Shown: piece after piece, positions 2,441 through 37,750 of the stretch
Layout: each line of letters opens with the position of its first letter
How positions within the stretch are numbered: position 1 is the stretch's first letter
Source: a phage
DNA: 64,000 nt
Sequence record: PZ452583.1
Strand: one strand, 5' to 3'
Made by a program: the position numbers and the translations under genes
The notes under the pieces: model-generated
Database searches by the model: none
What the model was told of the DNA's origin: nothing
Seen by the model: the letters and a program-made list of their open reading frames with translations, nothing else

Positions 2441-3641
2441 ATTTTGTAATAATGTCAAACTGTTCTTTAAAGCAGAAGCTTGAATCTTGATGCTGATACA
2501 AAAATTCATAAGCTTTTTCGCGTTCACGGTCATAAAGAGTTCGGTCAGATGACAGTTCTTTAATACGCTCGAATGTTGATTCCATGTCATTTTCATCAAA
2601 CCAAATGATACCGCTATCATGCGAGGTCAAAGGAGTATTATCAACACGGAATTTTAAATTTTCGCCAGTAGATTTCCAAAATACCGGAATTGTTCCACAT
2701 GCACCAAGCTCGAGATGAGTATATTCTAAAGAACGTTGTAGATATTTTTTGTCCAACTTACTCAGCTGATAACCAAAACCGGATTTACTCATGCGTTCAA
2801 GCATTTCGCTATTTACATAACGGTCAAGAATTTGCGTTGGCAAATTAGGAGCAATTTTAATTTGGTCTACTTGATGAAGACGATAATACTCGTATGGAAT
2901 TCCTTTTTCTTTAATAGGAATGAACGCTGGAGAACGTTCCAGACCTTCCATAATAGTACTTAGTCCTGCAGGTTTAAGATGTTTTTCATGAAAATCAAAC
3001 ATCTGATAAAAACCTTTCCATGTAGTCGTACGACCAATCCAACGGTTGATATTCATGTTAATTTCAGAAACATCTTTCCAGTAGGTTGACCGAACCTTCG
3101 CAATATCCATAGGAGGCTGAAAGTTATATACTGTCGGTGCTTCTTCAATATCATCAAACAGAGAAACTGTTTCAGGATACCATTCTTTCATCAGAACTTT
3201 ATTAAAATCACCATTATCAGAATGGCTAAAAATAACATCAGCTCGACGAACAGTTTCTTCTAATCCCAAATTTCGGCGCAAAGAAAGAGAAGAATGGTCA
3301 TGTTGATAAACTACAACACGAACAGAAGGTTTAATGTTATCAATAATTTTTTTATAGTTATTAATAGTGTCTTCTTCAACCGAAGTAGCAGGAACTGAAT
3401 TGATAATTAGAATATCACAATCATTTACCAGCTTAAGTGTTTTATCATATTCTTTTGCCAATAAAACCGGAATTGAAAATGATTTATAATCATGCGCGCA
3501 ATTACGAGTAAATGATTTATCTTTAGCATAAACCAAAGTTACTTCATGACCATTTTTAATAAACCAATCACGTTGCTCGAGTGAGAATTTTGTTACACCA
3601 CAACCTTCAAGACCTCGAGCCATAAAAATACATACTTTCAT
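2439..3641 (-). CDS. a-gt: DNA alpha-glucosyltransferase
   Basis: 400 aa; N-terminus ...CIFMARGLEGCGVTKFSLEQRDWFIKNGHEVTLVYAKDKSF matches T4 alpha-gt as recalled; position between 47 and 55. Confidence 0.88.
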   Translation of the reverse strand: MKVCIFMARGLEGCGVTKFSLEQRDWFIKNGHEVTLVYAKDKSFTRNCAHDYKSFSIPVLLAKEYDKTLKLVNDCDILIINSVPATSVEEDTINNYKKIIDNIKPSVRVVVYQHDHSSLSLRRNLGLEETVRRADVIFSHSDNGDFNKVLMKEWYPETVSLFDDIEEAPTVYNFQPPMDIAKVRSTYWKDVSEINMNINRWIGRTTTWKGFYQMFDFHEKHLKPAGLSTIMEGLERSPAFIPIKEKGIPYEYYRLHQVDQIKIAPNLPTQILDRYVNSEMLERMSKSGFGYQLSKLDKKYLQRSLEYTHLELGACGTIPVFWKSTGENLKFRVDNTPLTSHDSGIIWFDENDMESTFERIKELSSDRTLYDREREKAYEFLYQHQDSSFCFKEQFDIITK

Positions 3642-3692
3642 TTAATATCCTCTTTGTTTTGGTTTATTTTACCAAAAATTTATAAAGCAATA

Positions 3693-3710
3693 TAGGAGCC
3701 GAAGCTCCTA
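3693..3710 (-). terminator. Tetraloop hairpin (UAGGAGC-UUCG-GCUCCUA) followed by a U-rich tract, upstream of a-gt
   Basis: 7-bp stem read in sequence; U-rich run downstream on the minus strand. Confidence 0.45.
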
Positions 3711-3821
3711 TCCACATAATACGCCATACAGAGGCTCATTAGAACTTTTAAATTTTATGCGCTTATATTTTATAGTTCCTTCTGCTTTAGCTTTATCATG
3801 AGACTCTTTAAAGAGTCTCAT
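3708..3821 (-). CDS. Possible 37-aa basic small ORF starting inside a 30-bp palindrome
   Basis: Hand-translated MRLFKESHDKAKAEGTIKYKRIKFKSSNEPLYGVLCG; SD GAGGAA 3 nt upstream; could be non-coding. Confidence 0.25.
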   Translation of the reverse strand: MRLFKESHDKAKAEGTIKYKRIKFKSSNEPLYGVLCG

Positions 3822-3824
3822 GAT
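3795..3824. repeat. Perfect 30-bp palindrome ATCATGAGACTCTTTAAAGAGTCTCATGAT, followed at 3825-3840 by a second inverted repeat TTCCTC-TTTA-GAGGAA
   Basis: Read directly; both 15-nt halves are exact reverse complements. Confidence 0.8.
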
Positions 3825-3884
3825 TTCCTCTTTAGAGGAACGAATTTTATTATAATCTATTTCAGAAGTCTGGGTGTTCATCTT

Positions 3885-4088
3885 TCATAACTGCCACCAT
3901 TTTTTGACTTGATAAGAATCAACCCACACTTTCATATTAGGGTCTGCTCTTACAATAGGAGGATTAACTTCTTTAATTGAACTATCATGGTATTCTTTTT
4001 CAGAAATTTTCACACAAAGATGACCATTCAAAGATTCAGTAAATCCTGCATTAATTTTAAGACGCTTGAATTTTACGTGTGTAAGCAT
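3885..4088 (-). CDS. Hypothetical protein, 67 aa
   Basis: ORF-track start is TTG at 4091; first ATG is 4088. Confidence 0.45.
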   Translation of the reverse strand: MLTHVKFKRLKINAGFTESLNGHLCVKISEKEYHDSSIKEVNPPIVRADPNMKVWVDSYQVKKWWQL

Positions 4089-4374
4089 CAATCATATCCT
4101 CAATTTGCGATCTAGTAGTCTTCCAAAGAATACTGATGAGTTCATCGTTATATGGCTGTTTTAGAATATCCCGACTTTTCTTGATAGCATATTCGTATTG
4201 AGCAAAATTATTGTTTTCAGCTGCGATCTGAGCGTGCTTATAAAGACGATTCAGTTCGCGTTTGTTTTTAGACAATAACTTATTTGCTTTTCTTTCTGCT
4301 TCAAGACGGTTCTTTTCTTCAATAGAAGAAATAAGCTTTTCCACTTCATCATTAATTTCGGGTTTATCAGTCAT
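4057..4374 (-). CDS. Hypothetical protein, 105 aa, helical/charged
   Basis: ATG verified; coding strand between a-gt and 55. Confidence 0.55.
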   Translation of the reverse strand: MTDKPEINDEVEKLISSIEEKNRLEAERKANKLLSKNKRELNRLYKHAQIAAENNNFAQYEYAIKKSRDILKQPYNDELISILWKTTRSQIEDMIDAYTRKIQAS

Positions 4375-4375
4375 A

Positions 4376-4594
4376 TTATTTCTCTAATATAAAATAAAAA
4401 TCATCATCTGTTAAATGATACCTGTAATTTAATTCTACACCATTAGATTTAAAAGCGGTATCATACGGATTTTCTGGATCAATATCAATGTCAAGAGCTA
4501 AAACTTCCCTGAGATACATTTTAAGTAAATAGGGAATAGCTTCAACTTCAGGTATTTCTTCCAAGAATCCGGAGAGGTTAATCGTTAGCCTCAT
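4376..4594 (-). CDS. Hypothetical protein, 72 aa
   Basis: ATG verified; short overlap with gene 55 stop. Confidence 0.5.
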
Positions 4595-5135
4595 ATAAAA
4601 AATCCAAACTAGGAGAATCGTCTACAACACTTTTCTTTTCAGCCCCCGGTGTTCTATAGGTTGATTCTTCGTAATGCGTCATTTTATCGTAGATGTCTTG
4701 AATAAAAGTTTCATCTACTAACGCAACCATATCGTCGTCACGACTGTCATAGACATTGTGAACGAAGTAACTATATTTCTTTGCAACTTCCTTACGTTCT
4801 TTTTTAATACGCTGGACGAATGCATTAAAACAAGCTTGAGTTATATATGCATGTGGGTTTTTATATTTCGTTTCATCAAAATTATGAAGCCCCTTAATAG
4901 AAGCTTCTATACCATCTGCAATCATTTCTTGTTTCCAAGACTGGGTGTATCCTGAAAAGTTGAAACGTTTAGATAAGCCTTCTGCAATAAGCATAATGGC
5001 TAATCCGATAGTATCATTCTGACGAACTACTTTATTTGGGTCTTTATTATTTGCTAATTCTGTTTTCCAATCAATAATAGCTTGTAAAAGCTCTTTATTG
5101 TTTACGTAATTATATTTAGGCTTAGTTTCTGACAT
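4578..5135 (-). CDS. 55: Late-transcription sigma factor gp55
   Basis: 185 aa from ATG 5135 ([23 protein letters not shown]...YEAND) matches T4 gp55 as recalled; the ORF-track start at 5141 is an upstream GTG. Confidence 0.93.
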
Positions 5136-5213
5136 TTTCACCTCTTAGCTCAATTCATAGATCTATTATATCATAATATTTGAAGATCTATCTTAAAGCA
5201 TAGAGGATATCAG

Positions 5214-5483
5214 TTATCTAAGTAAACAGTATGCTTGGAACACTTTCTCCATCATCTTTTTAAATTCATGAATATCTATATAATGACTAGTTAAATCAGC
5301 ATGATATAAAAAGTCTAAAAACTTTTCATGTGTGCTAACATATTCACTTTCATTTAATTCAGAAACATGACTTTCCCAATATCCAACACCAGTCTTATTT
5401 GGGAAAAATGAAATTTTCATGTATTGGTCAACATAGAAAATGCCATAATTTTCAATAGTAATAGAAATATTAATAAATTTCAT
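5214..5483 (-). CDS. Hypothetical protein, 89 aa (55.x region)
   Basis: ATG verified; ATGA coupling with upstream ORF. Confidence 0.55.
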   Translation of the reverse strand: MKFINISITIENYGIFYVDQYMKISFFPNKTGVGYWESHVSELNESEYVSTHEKFLDFLYHADLTSHYIDIHEFKKMMEKVFQAYCLLR

Positions 5484-5695
5484 ACATTCATCAACTTAGC
5501 CGCTTCAAGAGCTGCATCTAGTGAATCAAATTGGTCAACATATTCAATCAATTCGCCATAATTGGCATATAACCACCATTGGCTAAATTCATACTCAAGG
5601 ATGAATCCGTTTCCTTCAATTTGAGTTAAACCAATGCCATTTGTATTTACTTCATACCCAGCAAGACGTAAATCGTTAATAAGAGCTTCGTTCAT
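5480..5695 (-). CDS. Hypothetical protein, 71 aa
   Basis: ATG verified; coupled to neighbours. Confidence 0.55.
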   Translation of the reverse strand: MNEALINDLRLAGYEVNTNGIGLTQIEGNGFILEYEFSQWWLYANYGELIEYVDQFDSLDAALEAAKLMNV

Positions 5696-5697
5696 AA

Positions 5698-6024
5698 TTA
5701 TACCTTAGTAATTTTCAGGTCTGCAAATTTTTTCTTGCGTTGATTTTTCATACGACGAATAGTTTTATCGGAAATTTCATGCTTTTGATAAGCTTTAGAT
5801 TCTACGCCAAAAGCTTTAACATCAAATTCTGACAAGATATATTGAACCAACAATTCACGGACAGTATTGCGTCCAATCTTCTGATCATTCTGTTTCATCG
5901 TCTGATGAAGCTCTTTTTCCCATTTATCCAAAATTTGAGGAGTTACAATATCGCCTTTTTCTAGCAAAGAAACTACTTTATCATATGCGTAAGAATTGAT
6001 GGCGTTTTTAATTTGAATAGTCAT
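5698..6024 (-). CDS. Hypothetical protein, 108 aa
   Basis: ATG verified. Confidence 0.6.
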   Translation of the reverse strand: MTIQIKNAINSYAYDKVVSLLEKGDIVTPQILDKWEKELHQTMKQNDQKIGRNTVRELLVQYILSEFDVKAFGVESKAYQKHEISDKTIRRMKNQRKKKFADLKITKV

Positions 6025-6061
6025 ACATTATCCTCAATTGCATTAAAATTTTATTATCCAA

Positions 6062-6077
6062 AAGGGCCGAAGCCCTT
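6062..6077 (-). terminator. Tetraloop hairpin (AAGGGC-UUCG-GCCCUU) with downstream U-rich tract
   Basis: 6-bp stem read in sequence between ORFs 6076..6276 and 5698..6024. Confidence 0.4.
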
Positions 6078-6276
6078 AGCTAAACTTTTTGGCACCCTTC
6101 CAGCCTTCGTACATCATTGCGGCTGATATTAATATTGCTCCTGAGCAACTTGAATATTTGTGATTCCAAAACCAGTTTAGAAAAACTTCATCATCAATAC
6201 CTTGGGCTATCATATTTTCAAAGAACTGACGACGAGCTTCGGCAATTCGTTGTGATAATTTAGATTCAGGATTCAT
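6076..6276 (-). CDS. Hypothetical protein, 66 aa
   Basis: ATG verified. Confidence 0.5.
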   Translation of the reverse strand: MNPESKLSQRIAEARRQFFENMIAQGIDDEVFLNWFWNHKYSSCSGAILISAAMMYEGWKGAKKFS

Positions 6277-6408
6277 TTAAATTTTCCAGTTACCATTTTC
6301 ATCAATAAATTTAATCCAGTCATTTACTGACCACTTAGTTGTATCGCCTTTTGGAGTAACATTTAAAGTGTATAACCCCTGCTTAAAAAGCATTCGTTTA
6401 ATATTCAT
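6277..6408 (-). CDS. Hypothetical small protein, 43 aa (trimmed from ORF 6277..6492)
   Basis: ORF-track start is TTG and overlaps ORF 6416..6754; internal ATG 6408 has SD GAGG upstream. Confidence 0.35.
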   Translation of the reverse strand: MNIKRMLFKQGLYTLNVTPKGDTTKWSVNDWIKFIDENGNWKI

Positions 6409-6415
6409 ATTTTCC

Positions 6416-6709
6416 TCAGCTGTAACGATAACATTCGTTTGATTTGCGCTTAGCAACTCGTTGAGATGTATTATAATCAAAATCATCGTCAATGTAAACT
6501 GATTTTTTCAACTTTCTTACTTCACCACGCAGTTGACGATTCAATTCATTCTTAACCTCTGAATCAACACCTCGCATACGTCGCCATTTATCTGAACGAA
6601 AAATGTTTTCAACCATATCTTTATGACTTACCCCATCAGGAGCTTTACGCTTTCCGAAATAGTCATAATCACGAACTTTCAAGTCTTTACGACGATACGT
6701 TTTACCCAT
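6416..6709 (-). CDS. Hypothetical basic protein, 97 aa
   Basis: ORF-track start is GTG at 6754; ATG 6709 has SD AAGGA. Confidence 0.5.
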   Translation of the reverse strand: MGKTYRRKDLKVRDYDYFGKRKAPDGVSHKDMVENIFRSDKWRRMRGVDSEVKNELNRQLRGEVRKLKKSVYIDDDFDYNTSQRVAKRKSNECYRYS

Positions 6710-6884
6710 GGAGTTTAATTTCCTTAGCAACTGAACTAAATACAGCACGATCACAAATCATGTGTTTATGTAACTTAAGTATAAGATAATAAACATCATA
6801 ACCATTTACGTAAGTAACACGAACAACATTACCATTAATAAAATAATATTGTCCCTTTTTAATTTCTTTATCAACCACAACCAT
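6702..6884 (-). CDS. Hypothetical protein, 60 aa
   Basis: ATG verified with SD GAGGA; first gene downstream of early promoter 6915..6944. Confidence 0.5.
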   Translation of the reverse strand: MVVVDKEIKKGQYYFINGNVVRVTYVNGYDVYYLILKLHKHMICDRAVFSSVAKEIKLHG

Positions 6885-6914
6885 ATCAAATCCTCAAAGG
6901 CAATTCATATGTTA

Positions 6915-6944
6915 ATAATACCACGGTTTGAACTTGTTGTAAAC
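6915..6944 (-). promoter_or_regulatory. T4-type early promoter (-35 GTTTAC, 18-bp spacer, -10 TATTAT)
   Basis: Read on minus strand; conserved upstream block TTTCACAAAGTT-GTTTAC shared with other copies in the window. Confidence 0.6.
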
Positions 6945-7042
6945 AACTTTGTGAAAATTATTTTAGGGAATGATAAGAAGGGAACGATAGCTTAGAATGG
7001 TAATATACAGAATGTAAGAAAGAAAGGCCCAGAAGGCCCGTC

Positions 7043-7366
7043 TTAGTCTTCTATGATATCTCTATCATATCCAAGTGAAATGAGAGTTTCTTTGAAGTGT
7101 TTAATGTTCTTTTGTCTAGAATCATTAATGAAAATGACTGGATAACGAATGTTAAGAGATGTGAATCCAGCGCGTTTAGCAAGAGATACAATCAGCGGAC
7201 GATCATACTCAATCTTACCATTATTTGTAAGAACTTTATAGAAAGTAAAAGGAGCATTGAGCTCCTTTAGAAGTTTTGTAACTGATTGACATCCAGGACA
7301 ACGACCAACTTCATCTGGAATTCCGTAGACTTCAATCTTATTCTTTAAGTTCGAGTTTTGTTCCAC
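7043..7366 (-). CDS. nrdH: Glutaredoxin/thioredoxin-fold protein (NrdH-like), about 107 aa
   Basis: CPGC redox motif after a KIEVYG strand; ORF-track N-terminus is hydrophobic read-through; start placed at in-frame GTG 7366 (no ATG available), start uncertain. Confidence 0.55.
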   Translation of the reverse strand: MEQNSNLKNKIEVYGIPDEVGRCPGCQSVTKLLKELNAPFTFYKVLTNNGKIEYDRPLIVSLAKRAGFTSLNIRYPVIFINDSRQKNIKHFKETLISLGYDRDIIED

Positions 7367-7649
7367 GAGAAATAATTCCTTGGTAAGCCCAATAAGGAGG
7401 ATTAACAGAATCCTCACCAGAGTTTTCTTCAGGAAAATAAACCTGGATAACGAAGCCGGATTCATCAAAGGTGAAATAAGTAGTAGGCAGTTCACCTAAC
7501 AAATCGGCACGAGCGTTGATTTCTTCGAGGTCTTGTTCACGTCCAGCCCAGAAGCTTGGGTTCAGACTACATTCATAGAAATAATAGTCATTACCGAACA
7601 TATCAAAACCATTCCAACTCTCTACTACATACCGCTCAAAACTAATCAT
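7338..7649 (-). CDS. Hypothetical protein, 103 aa, aromatic-rich
   Basis: ATG verified. Confidence 0.55.
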   Translation of the reverse strand: MISFERYVVESWNGFDMFGNDYYFYECSLNPSFWAGREQDLEEINARADLLGELPTTYFTFDESGFVIQVYFPEENSGEDSVNPPYWAYQGIISRGTKLELKE

Positions 7650-31446: not shown

Positions 31447-31465
<19 letters not shown>

Positions 31466-31935
31466 TCAGTGATAAAGTTATTTAAATTTTGAGTATATTT
31501 CTTTTCATCAAAAATCTTTTGCTGTCTGCGTAACCGCCATGGCATTTCAATGAACACGCACCATATCCCAGATAATATTGCTGCTGTAAAAATATTAACA
31601 AGTATGGTTAAAAGAATCCAATCTCCTATTCTGTCCATTGGATTTTTTATAAAAAAGTAAAATACGAATGATGTCACAGGAAGACTAATAATATACCACA
31701 GAATCATAATTTTATCTGTGAACCAATCAGCGTTCGTTAACTTAGCGCGACCATTATGAATACATACGAACTTATCATCTGTTATAGTAGATGGCTTAGC
31801 TGCTTGATATCCCATTCTAAACTCCCTAATTAACATTTTTTTCATATCTTCGGAACAGCCACTCCAGTCAACTCTATCAACTGAAATGCCATCATCCCCA
31901 TCATCTAAATCATACCAGCGAGTTTTTAAAATCAT
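31447..31935 (-). CDS. Membrane protein, 162 aa; first of four tandem ORFs sharing a C-terminal F-x-x-E-C-R-K-type motif
   Basis: ATG verified; two hydrophobic helices; C-terminus NNFITECRKLK. Confidence 0.55.
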
Positions 31936-32306
31936 TTAATTTTCCTACAATCACTCACAAACTCTTCCATTGATTCTTTTTCAATATAAGACATGTAGCT
32001 ATTATATTCCTTTAATTGTATTTTGTAATCCTTTTTTCTTTGCCAATTTATTTTAAAATTATCATAATGAAAATATAACATTGTACCAAAGAATGAAAAT
32101 AATGAAATCGCTATAGTATAATGAAGTTCACTCCAAACTTCTATTATATCTATTATACCGCTGACGTTACTACGGATGTTTAAAATAAAACAGTCAATTA
32201 ACAATCCAATAAGACTACCTGCAAGAGCTGCAAATGCTGATACGGCAAGAATTAATAGTGCCTCTGGAAACGAATATTTAACTTTATTTAGTTTTGGCTT
32301 TTGCAT
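31932..32306 (-). CDS. Small membrane protein, 124 aa (family member)
   Basis: ATG verified; TM hairpin; C-terminus EEFVSDCRKIK. Confidence 0.55.
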   Translation of the reverse strand: MQKPKLNKVKYSFPEALLILAVSAFAALAGSLIGLLIDCFILNIRSNVSGIIDIIEVWSELHYTIAISLFSFFGTMLYFHYDNFKINWQRKKDYKIQLKEYNSYMSYIEKESMEEFVSDCRKIK

Positions 32307-32680
32307 CGTGATTCCTTAACAAATTTCATAATTTCATCAAATTCATACGCAGCAAGTTTAAGCTGGTGTTCATTTTTAATCTTTTTACACTGAGCTTTCC
32401 ATTCGCGTACGCGTTTACGATAATGTCTTCCTTGATACCAGTATCCTACCCAATTTATAGGTACTAATAAAAATGGAACTACTAATGGAAGAATTAATAC
32501 TAACAGAAATATTACGCCAGATTCAATATCAGTCATAAAGTCTATAATCATTCCAACAATCAATAGAATTACAAATGATATAGCTGTCACAGGACCTATT
32601 AATACATCAGTAGAAATTAGCTGGCGCTTTAATTCATACTTTAAGGGTTTACTTGGAAGATACATTGATGGCTTTGACAT
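32288..32680 (-). CDS. Small membrane protein, 130 aa (family member)
   Basis: ATG verified; TM hairpin; C-terminus MKFVKESRCKSQN. Confidence 0.55.
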   Translation of the reverse strand: MSKPSMYLPSKPLKYELKRQLISTDVLIGPVTAISFVILLIVGMIIDFMTDIESGVIFLLVLILPLVVPFLLVPINWVGYWYQGRHYRKRVREWKAQCKKIKNEHQLKLAAYEFDEIMKFVKESRCKSQN

Positions 32681-33257
32681 ATTCTCTGCATTCCTTCACA
32701 AATTTTTCTAGTAATAAATCGCTTTCAAAATTGGGATTTTCTACGAATTTATCAAAAAGATCATCAACAATAGTTAAGATATTCTTTTTACTAAGAATAC
32801 GTTTATTTTCATGCTTCGTTTCAGAATCAACTATAAGAGTAAAGAAATATTTCTTGCCCTGAAATTTTACAGTAGTATCAATATAAAATAAATTTGACTT
32901 TTGTAAATTACGTTTAAACCGTGCATCACTTAAACTATAAACGCCAAGATAATCATAATCGTCGTTTAAATAACAGACCGTCCATTCAGGAGAAACAAAA
33001 TCAGTAAATTCAACGTCAAAATCGCATGTTAATAAATGAATTGATTCAATACTGTTAATAAGTATTCCAGGACGTATTAAAGACTTTTTACCTCTAGAAA
33101 ATCCTCTAGAAAGACTTTCATCAGTTTCATATGAAGAACCCCAATAATAATTACGTCCTTCTGCCATACGTTTAAGAGCATTTAATAATTGATCTGGAAC
33201 ATCAACCTGTCTTTGGAACTCTTCAAACATTGAATTGAAATCACTTTGCATTTTCAT
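32649..33257 (-). CDS. Hypothetical protein, 202 aa (family member by C-terminus)
   Basis: ATG verified; C-terminal EKFVKECREYVK. Confidence 0.55.
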   Translation of the reverse strand: MKMQSDFNSMFEEFQRQVDVPDQLLNALKRMAEGRNYYWGSSYETDESLSRGFSRGKKSLIRPGILINSIESIHLLTCDFDVEFTDFVSPEWTVCYLNDDYDYLGVYSLSDARFKRNLQKSNLFYIDTTVKFQGKKYFFTLIVDSETKHENKRILSKKNILTIVDDLFDKFVENPNFESDLLLEKFVKECREYVKAINVSSK

Positions 33258-33277: not shown

Positions 33278-33293
33278 AGGGGCCGAAGCCCCT
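33278..33293 (-). other. Tetraloop hairpin (AGGGGC-UUCG-GCCCCU) between ORFs
   Basis: 6-bp stem read in sequence; no U-run. Confidence 0.4.
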
Positions 33294-33298
33294 TATCA

Positions 33299-33892
33299 TT
33301 ATTTCAGAGAATTAATATATTCCTGAACATCGGCAGAGGTAGTTTCAACCCCAGAAATATTGCCATTAAAGGTTTCAACTCGGGCAAGAGTATCTTCAAT
33401 ATCAACCTTAGTCAGCGCTGCAATTTCAACTACATCATCAGCAGTACTAATTCCGAGGGCATTCGCAGCACGAGTTTCACGGATATATTCCAATTTAACT
33501 GCAAGTTCTTGGCGAGCATCATCTAACTCAACTACTTTCTTGGCAATTTCAATTCGCATTTCAGCATAACCATCAGCTTTAGTAGTCAACTGCTCAGCTG
33601 TTCGACGATATAGTAAACCGAGTTTAGCATGCATTGTTACATCTTGACCTTCAGAAAGAAGCTTGCGAATTTCACGCTCTTTTGATTCGGCCTGCTTATT
33701 CTTTTCGACAATAAGTTCACGAATACGCTTTTCTTCATTAATAGATTTAACAGAAGCAGTTTTTAGATCTTTAATCTTATCAAGTAGTTTTGCTGCCGCA
33801 GCAGTATACTGTTCTTCAACAGATAGATTTTTAGCCATAGCAGAACCAAGTTTAGTGCGAATAAACTCAACAATTTTCTTCAGCATGTTCAT
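33299..33892 (-). CDS. Coiled-coil protein, 197 aa, possible PspA/IM30-like fold
   Basis: All-helical heptad-rich sequence; local resemblance to E. coli PspA ([12 protein letters not shown] vs DDTLARMKKEI); weak. Confidence 0.55.
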
Positions 33893-33966
33893 AGCATTTC
33901 CTTTAGTTAATTAAGGGTTTTATAATCCGTGGGAGTATTATACTCTACTCCCAAGAGTTTGTAAAC

Positions 33967-36089: not shown

Positions 36090-36165
36090 TGGTCGAGGCA
36101 GTAGGGATCGAACCTACGACCTAGGACTTAGAAGGTCCTTGCTCTTCCTTCTGAGCTATGCCCCG
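36090..36165 (-). tRNA. tRNA-Arg (anticodon TCT)
   Basis: Hand-folded cloverleaf, 76 nt, CCA encoded; anticodon loop CTTCTAA; T-loop GGTTCGATCC. Confidence 0.85.
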
Positions 36166-36169
36166 TAAT

Positions 36170-36245
36170 TGGGGTGACCGATGGGAGTCGAACCCATGAC
36201 TACGAGAATCACAATCTCGAGTTCTACCAACTGAACTACGGCCAC
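36170..36245 (-). tRNA. tRNA-His (anticodon GTG); no encoded G(-1)
   Basis: Hand-folded cloverleaf, 76 nt; anticodon loop TTGTGAT; CCA encoded. Confidence 0.8.
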
Positions 36246-36359
36246 ATTAATATCTACTCCAACAATCATGATGTCTTCACACGAAATTAAGAGAAGAGTG
36301 ATCAGTTAAACCCTTATAATCGCGTCAAGTAGATATTAATGTGACAGTTGTCACAAATT

Positions 36360-36434
36360 TGGCGGACGTGATAGGATTCGAACCTATAACCAATCGCTTA
36401 ACAGGCGATCGCTCTGCCATTGAGCTACACATCC
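36360..36434 (-). tRNA. tRNA-Asn (anticodon GTT)
   Basis: Hand-folded cloverleaf, 75 nt; anticodon loop CTGTTAA; CCA encoded. Confidence 0.8.
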
Positions 36435-36438
36435 AAAT

Positions 36439-36525
36439 TGGTGGGGAGTGGTGGAGTCGAACCACCCGAGTCGCAATGACAATGAATTTACAGTCCACAC
36501 CGCTACCTCTACGGGATAACTCCCC
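36439..36525 (-). tRNA. tRNA-Tyr (anticodon GTA), long variable arm
   Basis: 87 nt; acceptor GGGGAGT/ACTCCCC; anticodon loop CTGTAAA; CCA encoded. Confidence 0.75.
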
Positions 36526-36537
36526 TAATTCATAATT

Positions 36538-36612
36538 TGGTGGCCCTGGGTGGAATTGAACCACCATCTGGCGATTATGAGTCGCTTGCTTGAACCTTCC
36601 AGCTACAGGGCC
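36538..36612 (-). tRNA. tRNA with anticodon CAT (elongator Met, or Ile if lysidine-modified as in T4 tRNA-Ile)
   Basis: 75 nt; acceptor GGCCCTG/CAGGGCC; anticodon loop CTCATAA; CCA encoded. Confidence 0.75.
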
Positions 36613-36613
36613 T

Positions 36614-36689
36614 TGGTGCTGATTGACGGAATCGAACCGCCGACCTTCTCATTACAAGTGAGTTGCTCTACCTACTGAGCTAAATCAGC
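36614..36689 (-). tRNA. tRNA-Thr (anticodon TGT)
   Basis: 76 nt; anticodon loop CTTGTAA; CCA encoded. Confidence 0.85.
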
Positions 36690-36694
36690 AAAAC

Positions 36695-36784
36695 TGGCGG
36701 AGGCGATAGGATTTGAACCTATGAGTCGCCGGAGCGACTGCCGGTTTTCAAGACCGGTGCATTAAACCACTCTGCCACGCCTCC
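36695..36784 (-). tRNA. tRNA-Ser (anticodon TGA), long variable arm
   Basis: 90 nt; anticodon stem-loop CCGGT-CTTGAAA-ACCGG; CCA encoded. Confidence 0.85.
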
Positions 36785-36786
36785 AG

Positions 36787-36860
36787 TCTCCATACAAGGA
36801 TTTGAACCTTGGACCTCCTGATCCCAAATCAGGCGCTCTACCAAACTGAGCTACACGGAG
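36787..36860 (-). tRNA. tRNA-Pro (anticodon TGG); 3' CCA not encoded, 2 nt from tRNA-Ser
   Basis: 74 nt; anticodon loop TTTGGGA; Pro-Ser dimeric arrangement as in T4. Confidence 0.8.
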
Positions 36861-36870
36861 TAAATTAAAT

Positions 36871-36944
<74 letters not shown>

Positions 36945-36949
36945 AAATT

Positions 36950-37036
36950 TGGTGCGAGAAGTGGGACTCGAACCCACAAGGAAATCATTCCGCAGCATTT
37001 TAAGTGCTGTGCCTTTACCAATTTGACCATTCTCGC
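36950..37036 (-). tRNA. tRNA-Leu (anticodon TAA), long variable arm
   Basis: 87 nt; anticodon stem-loop CAGCA-CTTAAAA-TGCTG; CCA encoded. Confidence 0.85.
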
Positions 37037-37042
37037 GTTATA

Positions 37043-37651
37043 TTATTTATTACGTGAAAAAGACTGTTCTATCAATTCTGGACACTTTCGTTCTATCCAT
37101 TTTCTAGCTTTTTGTGGGCTTATACCTATTATTTTAGCAGCTTTACTAACCCATCCAAATTTAGAATAATCGATTTTAACTAATTCTTCGTAAATTTCAT
37201 TAGTTAAAATCTTTTCATTAATATTTACCAGTAAATGATATAATTTGTTATCATTAGCAATTTTAATGAATCTTTTATAGTTTCCGCCTTTACTTAAACC
37301 TAATGAAGTAATTGCAGATGATATAGTAGCCGAATTTAATAATGCGTTTAAAATTTCTTCATCACTAACATTATAACGCTTTTTATTATTTTTAATATTT
37401 TTACCAGCAAAAGTATCAGTTTGCGAATGACAGTTTGGACATAATAATCTTAAATTTGATTTAAGATGATTTTTGTTATTTCCATCAATATGGTCTAATT
37501 GCAGAACAATATGCTTATTTTGCCATTTTGAAATTTTACAAATTGCACACTCATATGGAAAAATATTTTCTTTTATTATTTTGTCTTTCAGCTTTCCTGT
37601 ACTAAAATTTGGATGTTTTCCTTCAAAAATTTCAGCTAATTTAGTATCCAT
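37043..37651 (-). mobile_element. HNH homing endonuclease, 202 aa, 7 nt upstream of tRNA-Leu
   Basis: HNH core CAICKISKWQNKHIVLQLDHIDGNNKNHLKSNLRLLCPNCH plus C-terminal helix-turn-helix-like region; ORF-track start is TTG at 37675, first ATG 37651. Confidence 0.8.
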
Positions 37652-37750
37652 AATATGATTCCCAATTATTAACAAAGGCTCTCAAATAAGAACCCTTGAT
37701 GATAGAGGGTATTAATCAGTGCGGTATGAGTTAATAATAACAAATAATTC

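What the first reader, a model, noticed from the sequence alone, without database searches (positions are those of the whole stretch)
33299..33892. All-helical coiled-coil protein with a possible PspA/IM30-like fold next to the membrane-protein cluster
The 197-aa protein is heptad-rich throughout and has local resemblance to E. coli PspA. PspA-family proteins stabilise stressed membranes; a phage copy beside small membrane proteins and upstream of the lysis genes would be unusual. The assignment is weak.
Basis: inference. Interest (0 to 1): 0.4.

Follow-up and report, generated by a model that had tools for sequence, protein, structure and literature searches.

The report
T4 e.6: phage-encoded PspA/IM30 homolog

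Summary
The ORF is real: window 33299-33892 on the MINUS strand, 197 aa. It is gene e.6 of a Tequatrovirus (100% identical to phage TadeuszReichstein, 99.5% to AR1 e.6) and belongs to PHROG 1203, "unknown function".

The window protein alone gives no PspA hit in Pfam or PDB. The family does:
- Two distant orthologs from Vi01-like phages pass Pfam's gathering cutoff for PF04012 PspA_IM30 (39.0 and 35.1 bits against 33.9).
- A 39-sequence family profile hits Vipp1/PspA almost exclusively in PDB (E 8.5e-5 to 3e-3, collinear 1-146).
- hhalign against PspA+Vipp1 gives 92.8% probability, against at most 1.4% for reversed or shuffled controls.
- Foldseek's top 8-11 hits are all Vipp1.

The AlphaFold model (pLDDT 83.6) shows a cationic amphipathic α0, a roughly 60+60-residue hairpin and three short C-terminal helices. 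The last 52 residues are family-specific.

The homology is already in print (PMC7862958, 2021; PMC9409062, 2022). T4 e.6 has early RNA, is detected as protein, and is dispensable in CRISPRi-ART.

The most likely role is stabilising the inner membrane and proton-motive force during infection. This is inferred, not shown. Verdict: interpretation supported, novelty low, interest modest.

The parts
33299..33892 (-). e.6 coding sequence (197 aa plus stop), a phage PspA/IM30-superfamily protein
   Evidence: ORF and translation. 100%/99.5% identity to annotated e.6 orthologs. PHROG 1203 at E 5.5e-88. PspA link.
33827..33889 (-). Codons 2-22: N-terminal amphipathic cationic helix alpha0, the putative membrane anchor
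   Evidence: Helix 2-22 in both models. Family mean hydrophobic moment 0.41, in the top ~7% of 18-mers within its own protein, with mean net charge +2.8. This segment alone aligns to PspA alpha0 at E 1.2e-4. Distant members start MGILSRIKEF / MSIFQRLKSIF / MNIFKRLFRLF, like PspA MGIFSRFADIV and Vipp1 MGLFDRLGRVV.
33653..33820 (-). Codons 25-80: helix alpha1, first arm of the ESCRT-III-type hairpin
   Evidence: AlphaFold helix 25-80 with 10-residue block means of about 80-98. Aligned collinearly to PspA/Vipp1 alpha1.
33458..33637 (-). Codons 86-145: helix alpha2/3, second arm of the hairpin
   Evidence: AlphaFold helix 86-145 with 10-residue block means of about 85-95. The hairpin superposes on Vipp1 6zvs_A at 2.9-3.3 A over 123 columns.
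33302..33457 (-). Codons 146-197: family-specific C-terminal region with three short helices (151-160, 166-174, 186-196) and conserved G147, T174, F175, Y192, L196
   Evidence: No detectable similarity to PspA (hhalign 0.8%). It is as conserved as the hairpin (0.48 against 0.43-0.47 column conservation in A2). It is shared by the Vi01-type orthologs.
33937..33965 (-). Sigma-70/T4-early-type promoter-like site TTTACA-17-TATAAT (11 of 12), 45 nt upstream of the ATG
   Evidence: Best-scoring promoter-like site in the 5-kb region scanned. Consistent with T4 e.6 being classed as an early transcript. It is a consensus match only and is not mapped here.
33897..33903 (-). Shine-Dalgarno-like AAGGAAA, 4 nt before the ATG
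   Evidence: Read directly from the upstream sequence.
33278..33293 (-). GC-rich UUCG-tetraloop hairpin (AGGGGCUUCGGCCCCU) between e.6 and e.5
   Evidence: Sequence. The inverted repeat was detected by the terminator scan on the opposite strand. On the e.6 strand it lacks a full T-run, so it may be an RNA-stability or attenuating element. Function not tested.

Best explanation
The gene is T4-type e.6, a highly diverged, phage-encoded member of the PspA/IM30(Vipp1)/ESCRT-III superfamily. It is transcribed early from its own sigma-70-type promoter. Proposed mechanism: the cationic amphipathic N-terminal helix alpha0 docks the protein on the cytoplasmic face of the inner membrane. The alpha1-alpha2/3 hairpin then drives self-assembly into an ESCRT-III-like coat, and this coat seals or stabilises stressed membrane so that the proton-motive force is kept up during infection. 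A phage would need its own copy because T4 shuts off host transcription, so the host's sigma-54/PspF-dependent psp induction cannot respond to phage-inflicted membrane stress (DNA injection, insertion of many small phage membrane proteins, superinfection, holin accumulation). What is shown here: gene identity, family membership by profile and by fold, the predicted architecture, early expression and dispensability. What is inferred: membrane binding, oligomerisation, PMF protection, and the rationale for the phage carrying it.
For: Identity.

Homology chain:
- The close-family profile finds P0067 and P0066 at E 2.9e-20 and 9.6e-22 in 1.84 billion proteins.
- The window protein aligns with P0067 end to end (BLASTP E 5e-14, residues 2-196).
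- P0067 and P0066 score 39.0 and 35.1 bits against PF04012, whose cutoff is 33.9. They align at residues 6-146 to profile positions 2-143, and their next-best Pfam families are at E >= 0.03.
- 5 of 39 family members hit PF04012.

Direct tests:
- The A2 profile against PDB gives Vipp1/PspA at E 8.5e-5 to 3e-3, collinear from residue 1.
- hhalign A2 against PspA+Vipp1 gives 92.8% probability, E 4e-7, 156 columns.
- Reversed, column-shuffled and heptad-block-shuffled controls give <=1.4% and score <=19, against 48 for the real comparison.

Fold:
- The model has pLDDT 83.6 and helices alpha0, alpha1, alpha2/3 plus three short ones.
- Foldseek's top 8 (model 1) and top 11 (model 2) PDB hits are all Vipp1 at probability 1.00, followed by archaeal ESCRT-III CdvB2.
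- Alpha0 is amphipathic and cationic.

Expression and context:
- T4 e.6 is early RNA / middle protein (PMC9697503 supplement).
- Knockdown has no fitness cost in the laboratory, as expected for a conditional accessory gene (PMC11879866 supplement).
- Independent published HHpred results: 99.9% to E. coli PspA 4WHE_A for the e.6 homolog of phage Metamorpho, and a PspA match for phrog_1203 in Kuttervirus SeF3a.
Against: - The window protein on its own has no PF04012 hit even at E <= 10. The close-relative profile reaches PspA only at E about 1 and 14% HH probability. Membership therefore rests on transitivity through distant orthologs.
- The HH signal is concentrated in residues 1-85. The hairpin alone (25-145) scores 7.5% and the C-terminal 52 residues 0.8%. 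The parts that mediate inter-subunit contacts in PspA/Vipp1 polymers (alpha4, alpha5) are thus not recognisably conserved.
- No psp partner genes (pspB, pspC, pspF) are nearby.
- No neighbour is conserved across lineages.
- There is no experimental evidence for membrane binding, assembly or any phenotype. Knockdown is neutral.
Confidence: 0.55

Rival explanations
1. Dedicated counter-defence: e.6 is a PspA-type membrane protector whose selected role is to block abortive-infection systems that kill by depolarising or permeabilising the inner membrane (Rex-type systems, transmembrane effectors of CBASS, retrons and others). This is the hypothesis of Gendre et al. 2022. It overlaps mechanistically with the best explanation and differs in the selective purpose and the expected phenotype.
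For: Proposed in print for the phrog_1203 member of Kuttervirus SeF3a. The gene is dispensable on a laboratory host, typical of counter-defence genes. It sits in a hyperplastic accessory region whose neighbours differ between lineages. It is expressed early.
Against: There is no hit to any defence or anti-defence model (PADLOC). The gene is near-universal across more than 1000 T4-like genomes with full-length conservation, more like a core housekeeping accessory than a patchy anti-defence gene. No experimental test exists.
Confidence: 0.2
2. Molecular mimic or decoy of host PspA: e.6 uses its PspA-like alpha0/alpha1 surface to engage host partners of PspA rather than to protect membrane itself. 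Candidate partners are PspF, PspB/C, or immune machinery that uses PspA as a hub. The effect would be to silence or hijack host signalling.
For: The conserved similarity to PspA is concentrated in alpha0 plus the first part of alpha1. From established knowledge, this is the region of E. coli PspA implicated in membrane and PspF interaction. The C-terminal part that builds PspA polymers is replaced by a family-specific tail. Host PspA can act as an immune hub: a CBASS cyclase is conjugated to PspA and released upon infection (PMC11153139).
Against: T4 abolishes host transcription (established knowledge), so manipulating PspF-dependent transcription seems to gain the phage little. The CBASS-PspA link was shown in Bacillus, not in enterobacteria. 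No interaction data exist. The full hairpin is retained and well conserved, which suggests the self-assembly scaffold matters.
Confidence: 0.12
3. A homolog that has drifted to a non-membrane role: for example a coiled-coil scaffold or adaptor for another early phage process, or a virion or host-range factor as the 'host specificity protein' label on many database entries implies.
Against: Nothing in Pfam, PHROGs or NCBIfam supports a tail, receptor-binding or virion role. Early transcription does not fit a structural virion protein. The amphipathic cationic alpha0, the membrane-binding element of the family, is retained across the whole family.
Confidence: 0.1
4. Not homologous at all: the PspA signal is convergent similarity between long charged coiled coils.
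For: Coiled-coil families cross-hit weakly in every scan. The single sequence shows nothing significant.
Against: Reversed, column-shuffled and heptad-block-shuffled PspA templates score <=1.4% against 92% for the real one. The Pfam PspA hit of P0067 is more than 7 orders of magnitude better than any other coiled-coil family. All alignments are collinear from residue 1. Two independent methods (sequence profiles and Foldseek) and two published HHpred analyses agree.
Confidence: 0.04

Closest known systems
E. coli PspA (phage shock protein A; Pfam PF04012; PDB 4WHE)
   Same: The order and lengths of alpha0 (amphipathic), alpha1 and alpha2/3 (hairpin) are the same. The alignment is collinear from residue 1 to about 160. 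Overall size is similar (197 against 222 aa).
   Different: Only about 12-24% identity. The KAEDP linker motif is not kept in the T4 clade. The C-terminal alpha4/alpha5 region is not recognisably similar. Alpha0 is more cationic (+2.8 against 0). It is encoded by a lytic phage, driven by an early sigma-70-type promoter, and has no pspBC or pspF neighbours. The family profile actually scores E. coli PspA (E 1.4) worse than cyanobacterial Vipp1 (E 8.5e-5), so it is not a recent capture from the enterobacterial host.
Vipp1/IM30 of cyanobacteria (Synechocystis sll0617, Nostoc; PDB 7O3W, 6ZVR, 8QBR and others)
   Same: Best sequence-profile hits and best fold hits, with Foldseek probability 1.00. 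The hairpin superposes at about 3 A on 6zvs_A.
   Different: Vipp1 is longer (about 260 aa) and has alpha4-alpha6. e.6 lacks the alpha6 extension and has its own 52-residue tail. Large rmsd over full length: the monomer model's overall conformation differs from the polymer-state Vipp1 chains.
PspA/IM30-family proteins of Vi01-like phages (Ackermannviridae: Salmonella Vi01, SP1, SeF3a Gp_125; Klebsiella T751)
   Same: True orthologs of e.6: full-length alignment including the C-terminal tail, same PHROG 1203, same size (202 aa).
   Different: 22-30% identical to the T4 clade. They retain enough ancestral signal to pass Pfam's PF04012 cutoff and to be named 'PspA/IM30 family protein' by NCBI. 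The genomic neighbourhood is different.
Klebsiella phage Metamorpho gp163 and T4 e.6 (UniProt P39224)
   Same: Same gene. The authors state that gp163 is the T4 e.6 homolog and aligns with PspA 4WHE_A at 99.9% by HHpred. From the guide sequence, T4 e.6 starts MNTLKKIV, against MNMLKKIV for the window protein.
   Different: Nothing substantive. The window copy is simply another Tequatrovirus allele.
Eukaryotic and archaeal ESCRT-III (CHMP3, CHMP1B, CdvB2)
   Different: No sequence-level signal. No Vps4-type ATPase partner is evident. Whether the conserved extreme C-terminal helix of e.6 is a partner-binding motif was not tested.

Membership tests
PspA/IM30 family (Pfam PF04012) | The protein itself scores above the curated gathering cutoff of the family HMM | tested here: not met
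   The window protein has no PF04012 hit even at E <= 10. NCBIfam gives nothing relevant.
PspA/IM30 family (Pfam PF04012) | Demonstrable homology to family members through orthologs and profiles | tested here: met
   Orthologs P0067 and P0066 score 39.0 and 35.1 bits against the 33.9 cutoff. They are linked to the window protein by BLASTP E 5e-14 over the full length and by profile E about 1e-20. hhalign gives 92.8% with controls <=1.4%. Profile against PDB gives E 8.5e-5 to Vipp1.
PspA/IM30 family (Pfam PF04012) | N-terminal amphipathic helix alpha0 (membrane-binding element) | tested here: met
   Predicted helix 2-22. Hydrophobic moment 0.46 in the window protein, family mean 0.41, within the top ~7% of its own protein, net charge +2.8. 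The prediction is structural only; binding was not assayed.
PspA/IM30 / ESCRT-III superfamily | Long alpha1-alpha2/3 helical hairpin as the core fold | tested here: met
PspA/IM30 / ESCRT-III superfamily | C-terminal helices alpha4/alpha5 that pack on neighbouring subunits in the polymer | tested here: inconclusive
   Three short helices are predicted (151-160, 166-174, 186-196). They have no sequence similarity to PspA alpha4/alpha5 (0.8%). The region is conserved within the phage family.
PspA/IM30 / ESCRT-III superfamily | Homo-oligomerisation into rings, rods or carpets on membranes | not testable with these tools
   Needs purified protein and EM. Only monomer prediction was available.
Psp stress-response system (E. 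coli type) | Genomic and functional association with pspB/pspC membrane partners and the PspF activator | tested here: not met
   The neighbours are e.7, e.5, e.4, e.3, e.2 and nudE, with no psp genes. The neighbours are not conserved in distant lineages. Small membrane proteins lie within 2 genes in 4 of 5 contexts, which is not above what is expected for phage accessory regions (background estimate is my own).
Psp stress-response system (E. coli type) | Maintains proton-motive force under membrane stress | not testable with these tools
   Requires physiology (membrane-potential dyes, ion leakage) with a deletion mutant.

The most novel reading that the evidence does not exclude
e.6 would be the first functionally defined viral ESCRT-III/PspA-type protein. 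In this reading it is a phage-built membrane-repair coat, or a PspA decoy. It keeps the infected cell energised against membrane-depolarising abortive-infection effectors or self-inflicted damage, replacing a host stress response that the phage has itself disabled. Its family-specific C-terminal tail would recruit a so-far unknown partner.
Probability: 0.25. Interest if true: 0.7.

Novelty: already known. Interest (0 to 1): 0.35.

Why it matters
PspA was named for being induced by a phage protein, and here one of the best-studied phages carries its own copy. Orthologs are present in more than 1000 sequenced T4-like and Vi01-like genomes, yet almost all are still labelled 'hypothetical' or, without support, 'host specificity protein'.

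If the protein really preserves membrane energisation during infection, it would explain how T4 copes with membrane stress after shutting off the host's psp response. It would add a viral branch to the ESCRT-III superfamily. It would also offer a small, genetically tractable model for PspA-type membrane repair, or a new class of counter-defence.

As it stands, the value of this finding is annotation. The homology is solid and already published, and the biology is open.

Tried and rejected
1. Single-sequence searches of the window protein against Pfam, PDB sequences, NCBIfam and PADLOC gave nothing relevant.
2. The close-relative profile (A1) reached Vipp1 only at E about 1 and 14% HH probability. 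It is too shallow, and distant orthologs were needed.
4. Two attempts to build a diverse PspA reference (homolog search with E. coli PspA; genome scan) returned only relatives that are >=78% identical. The HH template stayed thin (Neff 1.8), which probably understates the probability; the published HHpred value is 99.9%.
5. The AFDB50 fold library was unavailable.
6. I looked for a conserved partner gene. e.5 and e.7 have no homologs next to distant e.6 orthologs. The 'membrane-protein neighbour' pattern (4 of 5 contexts) is not clearly above background, so I do not use it as evidence.
7. The 'host specificity protein' label found no supporting domain.
8. Literature searches on 'e.6' as a bare term were swamped by unrelated hits. 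No paper testing e.6 function was found.
9. Plus-strand ORFs overlapping the gene (33360-33569 and 33663-33914) are treated as antisense artefacts of a conserved minus-strand gene.

Full report
**1. What is at the coordinates**

The plus-strand translation of 33299-33892 is full of stops. The minus strand gives one uninterrupted ATG-to-stop ORF of 197 aa. The surrounding minus-strand genes are the T4 order e.8 - e.7 - e.6 - e.5 - e.4 - e.3 - e.2 - nudE - e (lysozyme) - denV, with a block of 10 tRNA genes further upstream.

By tblastn the protein is 100% identical to a protein of Escherichia phage TadeuszReichstein and 99.5% identical to the gene annotated e.6 in phage AR1. 1100 of 50,697 phage records carry a homolog, nearly all full length. 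It belongs to PHROG 1203, 'unknown function' (E 5.5e-88).

**2. Expression signals**

The best sigma-70-type promoter match in the 5 kb around the gene is TTTACA-17-TATAAT (11 of 12). It lies at 33965-33937 on the gene's strand, directly after the e.7 stop codon and 45 nt before the e.6 ATG. An AAGGAAA Shine-Dalgarno sequence precedes the start, and a GGGGC-UUCG-GCCCC hairpin follows the stop.

Published time-resolved omics classify T4 e.6 (P39224) as early RNA and middle protein, so the protein is detected in infected cells (PMC9697503 supplement). Genome-wide dCas13d knockdown scored T4 e.6 'Not Fit' (0.30, p 0.20), meaning it is dispensable under laboratory conditions (PMC11879866 supplement).

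**3. Is it PspA-like? Sequence evidence**

The window protein by itself shows nothing:
- No PF04012 hit even at E <= 10.
- No PDB sequence hit.
- BLASTP against E. coli PspA gives E 0.03 for the single pair.

A profile of 29 close relatives (A1) gave only E about 1 hits to Vipp1. These were strikingly collinear, 4-141 against 4-143.

An exhaustive profile search of 1.84 billion representative proteins showed a compact family. There are 45 representatives, all about 200 aa, and none is a cellular PspA. The search also supplied distant members down to 18% identity. Scanning 39 members individually against Pfam gave 5 hits to PF04012 PspA_IM30. Two of them pass the curated 33.9-bit cutoff: P0067 at 39.0 bits (E 8.9e-10) and P0066 at 35.1 bits (E 1.4e-8). 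Both align at residues 6-146 to profile positions 2-143, and every other Pfam family is at E >= 0.03.

P0067 is a true ortholog of the window protein. BLASTP gives E 5e-14 over residues 2-196, including the C-terminal tail, and the profile E is 2.9e-20. It lies on a contig that also encodes UvsX-type recombinase and gp41-type (DnaB-family) helicase homologs. Its clade is the Vi01-like Ackermannviridae (Salmonella Vi01 and SP1, Klebsiella T751). Most members there carry a precomputed PF04012 hit, and one is named 'PspA/IM30 family protein' by NCBI. tblastn with P0067 reaches genes annotated e.6 in T4-like phages directly.

With the broad family profile (A2):
- 8 of the top 9 PDB sequence hits are Vipp1/IM30/PspA entries (E 8.5e-5 to 3e-3), each collinear from residue 1 to about 146.
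- hhalign of A2 against a PspA+Vipp1 alignment gives 92.8% probability, E 4e-7, over 156 columns.
- The same comparison with reversed, column-shuffled or heptad-block-shuffled templates gives <=1.4% and scores <=19, against 48 for the real one.

Coiled-coil composition therefore does not explain the match. The reference alignment was shallow (Neff 1.8), so 92.8% is probably conservative.

**4. Structure evidence**

AlphaFold2 with the deep alignment gives mean pLDDT 83.6 and pTM 0.67. It predicts six helices: 2-22, 25-80, 86-145, 151-160, 166-174 and 186-196. The shallower run gave the same topology.

**5. Anatomy of the similarity**

Cutting the profile shows that the signal sits mainly in alpha0 plus alpha1:
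- Residues 1-85: 88% probability.
- Alpha0 alone: 55%, E 1.2e-4.
- The hairpin alone (25-145): 7.5%.
- Residues 146-197: 0.8%.

Alpha0 is amphipathic, with family mean hydrophobic moment 0.41, in the top ~7% within its own protein. It is clearly cationic, at +2.8 against 0 to +1 in PspA and Vipp1. Distant members begin MGILSRIKEF, MSIFQRLKSIF and MNIFKRLFRLF, close to PspA MGIFSRFADIV and Vipp1 MGLFDRLGRVV.

The C-terminal 52 residues are specific to the phage family. They are as conserved as the hairpin and end in a conserved amphipathic helix (…D-x-x-x-Y-[LI]-x-S-L-K).

**6. Context**

- e.4, e.3 and e.2 are small membrane proteins, while e.5 has no hydrophobic segment.
- Neither e.5 nor e.7 has a homolog next to the distant orthologs.
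- Membrane-protein genes lie within two genes of the e.6 ortholog in 4 of 5 contexts examined. Such genes are frequent in phage accessory regions, so I do not count this as evidence.
- No psp partner genes are present.
- The only lysis gene nearby is the endolysin e, 2.3 kb downstream.

**7. Prior knowledge**

- The genome announcement of Klebsiella phage Metamorpho (2021) states that gp163 is a homolog of T4 e.6 and aligns with E. coli PspA 4WHE_A at 99.9% by HHpred (PMC7862958).
- Gendre et al. 2022 found that the phrog_1203 protein of Kuttervirus SeF3a is homologous to PspA. They proposed that it counters abortive infection by preventing PMF loss (PMC9409062).
- The large PSP evolution and ESCRT-III papers I checked do not discuss phage copies.
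- The 2025 CRISPRi-ART tables still list e.6 as unknown, and nearly all GenBank records say 'hypothetical protein' or 'host specificity protein'.
- I found no functional study.

**8. Most likely mechanism**

Shown: e.6 is an early-expressed, dispensable, widely conserved phage member of the PspA/IM30/ESCRT-III superfamily that retains the membrane-binding helix and the hairpin.

Inferred: it binds the inner membrane through alpha0, self-assembles through the hairpin, and limits proton and ion leakage during infection. It would stand in for the host Psp response, which needs new sigma-54 transcription that T4 abolishes (established T4 and Psp biology, not tested here).

Rivals:
- A dedicated anti-Abi role (a sub-case of the same mechanism).
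- A decoy of host PspA acting on PspF, PspBC or on immune machinery that uses PspA as a hub. A CBASS cyclase is conjugated to PspA in Bacillus.
- A diverged non-membrane scaffold.
- Mere coiled-coil convergence, which the controls make unlikely.

**9. Verdict**

The protein does not itself pass the Pfam family threshold, so strict HMM-threshold membership is not met for this sequence. Homology to the family is nevertheless well supported through orthologs, profile-profile comparison and fold. The homology is already published, so novelty is low. The unanswered question is what a phage does with a PspA. That question is directly testable and moderately interesting.

Noticed in passing
window 31447-33257 (minus strand): C-terminal ends of e.5 (about 32649-32710), e.4 (about 32288-32330), e.3 (about 31932-31970) and e.2 (about 31447-31485): Four consecutive genes end in a similar peptide: e.5 …EKFVKECREYV…, e.4 …MKFVKESRCK…, e.3 …EEFVSDCRKIK, e.2 …[11 protein letters not shown]. 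At the DNA level (TTTGTGAAGGAATGCAG-like) this overlaps the Shine-Dalgarno sequence and start of the next, overlapping gene. It could reflect tandem duplication of a gene-plus-junction module or a shared translational-coupling element.
   Followed up: partly
window 33931-33952 (minus strand): A 7-bp inverted repeat, GGGAGTA-N8-TACTCCC, lies immediately after the e.7 stop. Its loop and 3' arm overlap the -10 TATAAT of the e.6 promoter-like site. It may be a hairpin on read-through transcripts or a regulatory element. It was not folded or compared across phages.
   Followed up: no
window 33278-33293: A stable GGGGC-UUCG-GCCCC tetraloop hairpin lies in the 41-nt gap between e.6 and e.5. On the gene strand it lacks a proper T-run. 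It is possibly an mRNA-stabilising or processing element rather than a terminator.
   Followed up: no
database records for e.6 orthologs (hits H3-H5, H15, H18, H21, H24; P0003, P0033, P0037): Many GenBank and UniRef entries label this protein 'host specificity protein'. No domain or family result supports that name. It looks like a propagated mis-annotation.
   Followed up: partly
window 36090-37036 (minus strand) and 37043-37675: Ten tRNA genes (Arg, His, Asn, Tyr, Met, Thr, Ser, Pro, Gly, Leu) sit in one tight cluster. A 210-aa ORF abuts it, with a Cys/His-rich segment (…CAICK…H…LDHIDGN…CPNCH…) that looks like an HNH-type homing endonuclease; this is my reading of the sequence, and no domain search was run. 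In phage AR1 a segD gene sits inside the cluster instead, so endonuclease content differs between close relatives.
   Followed up: no
locus L085 (metagenomic contig carrying distant ortholog P0073), 3200-7640: In this very distant relative the e.6 ortholog again lies near a NUDIX hydrolase gene (two genes upstream) and a peptidoglycan hydrolase gene (Peptidase_M15_4, five genes downstream). This echoes the nudE and e neighbourhood of T4, although the intervening genes differ.
   Followed up: no
window 33302-33334 (codons 187-197 of e.6): The extreme C-terminal helix (…[12 protein letters not shown], family consensus D-x-x-x-Y-[LI]-x-S-L-K) is conserved and confidently predicted. In eukaryotic ESCRT-III the C-terminal helix carries partner-binding motifs. 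The pattern loosely recalls those motifs, but that comparison is from memory and was not tested.
   Followed up: no
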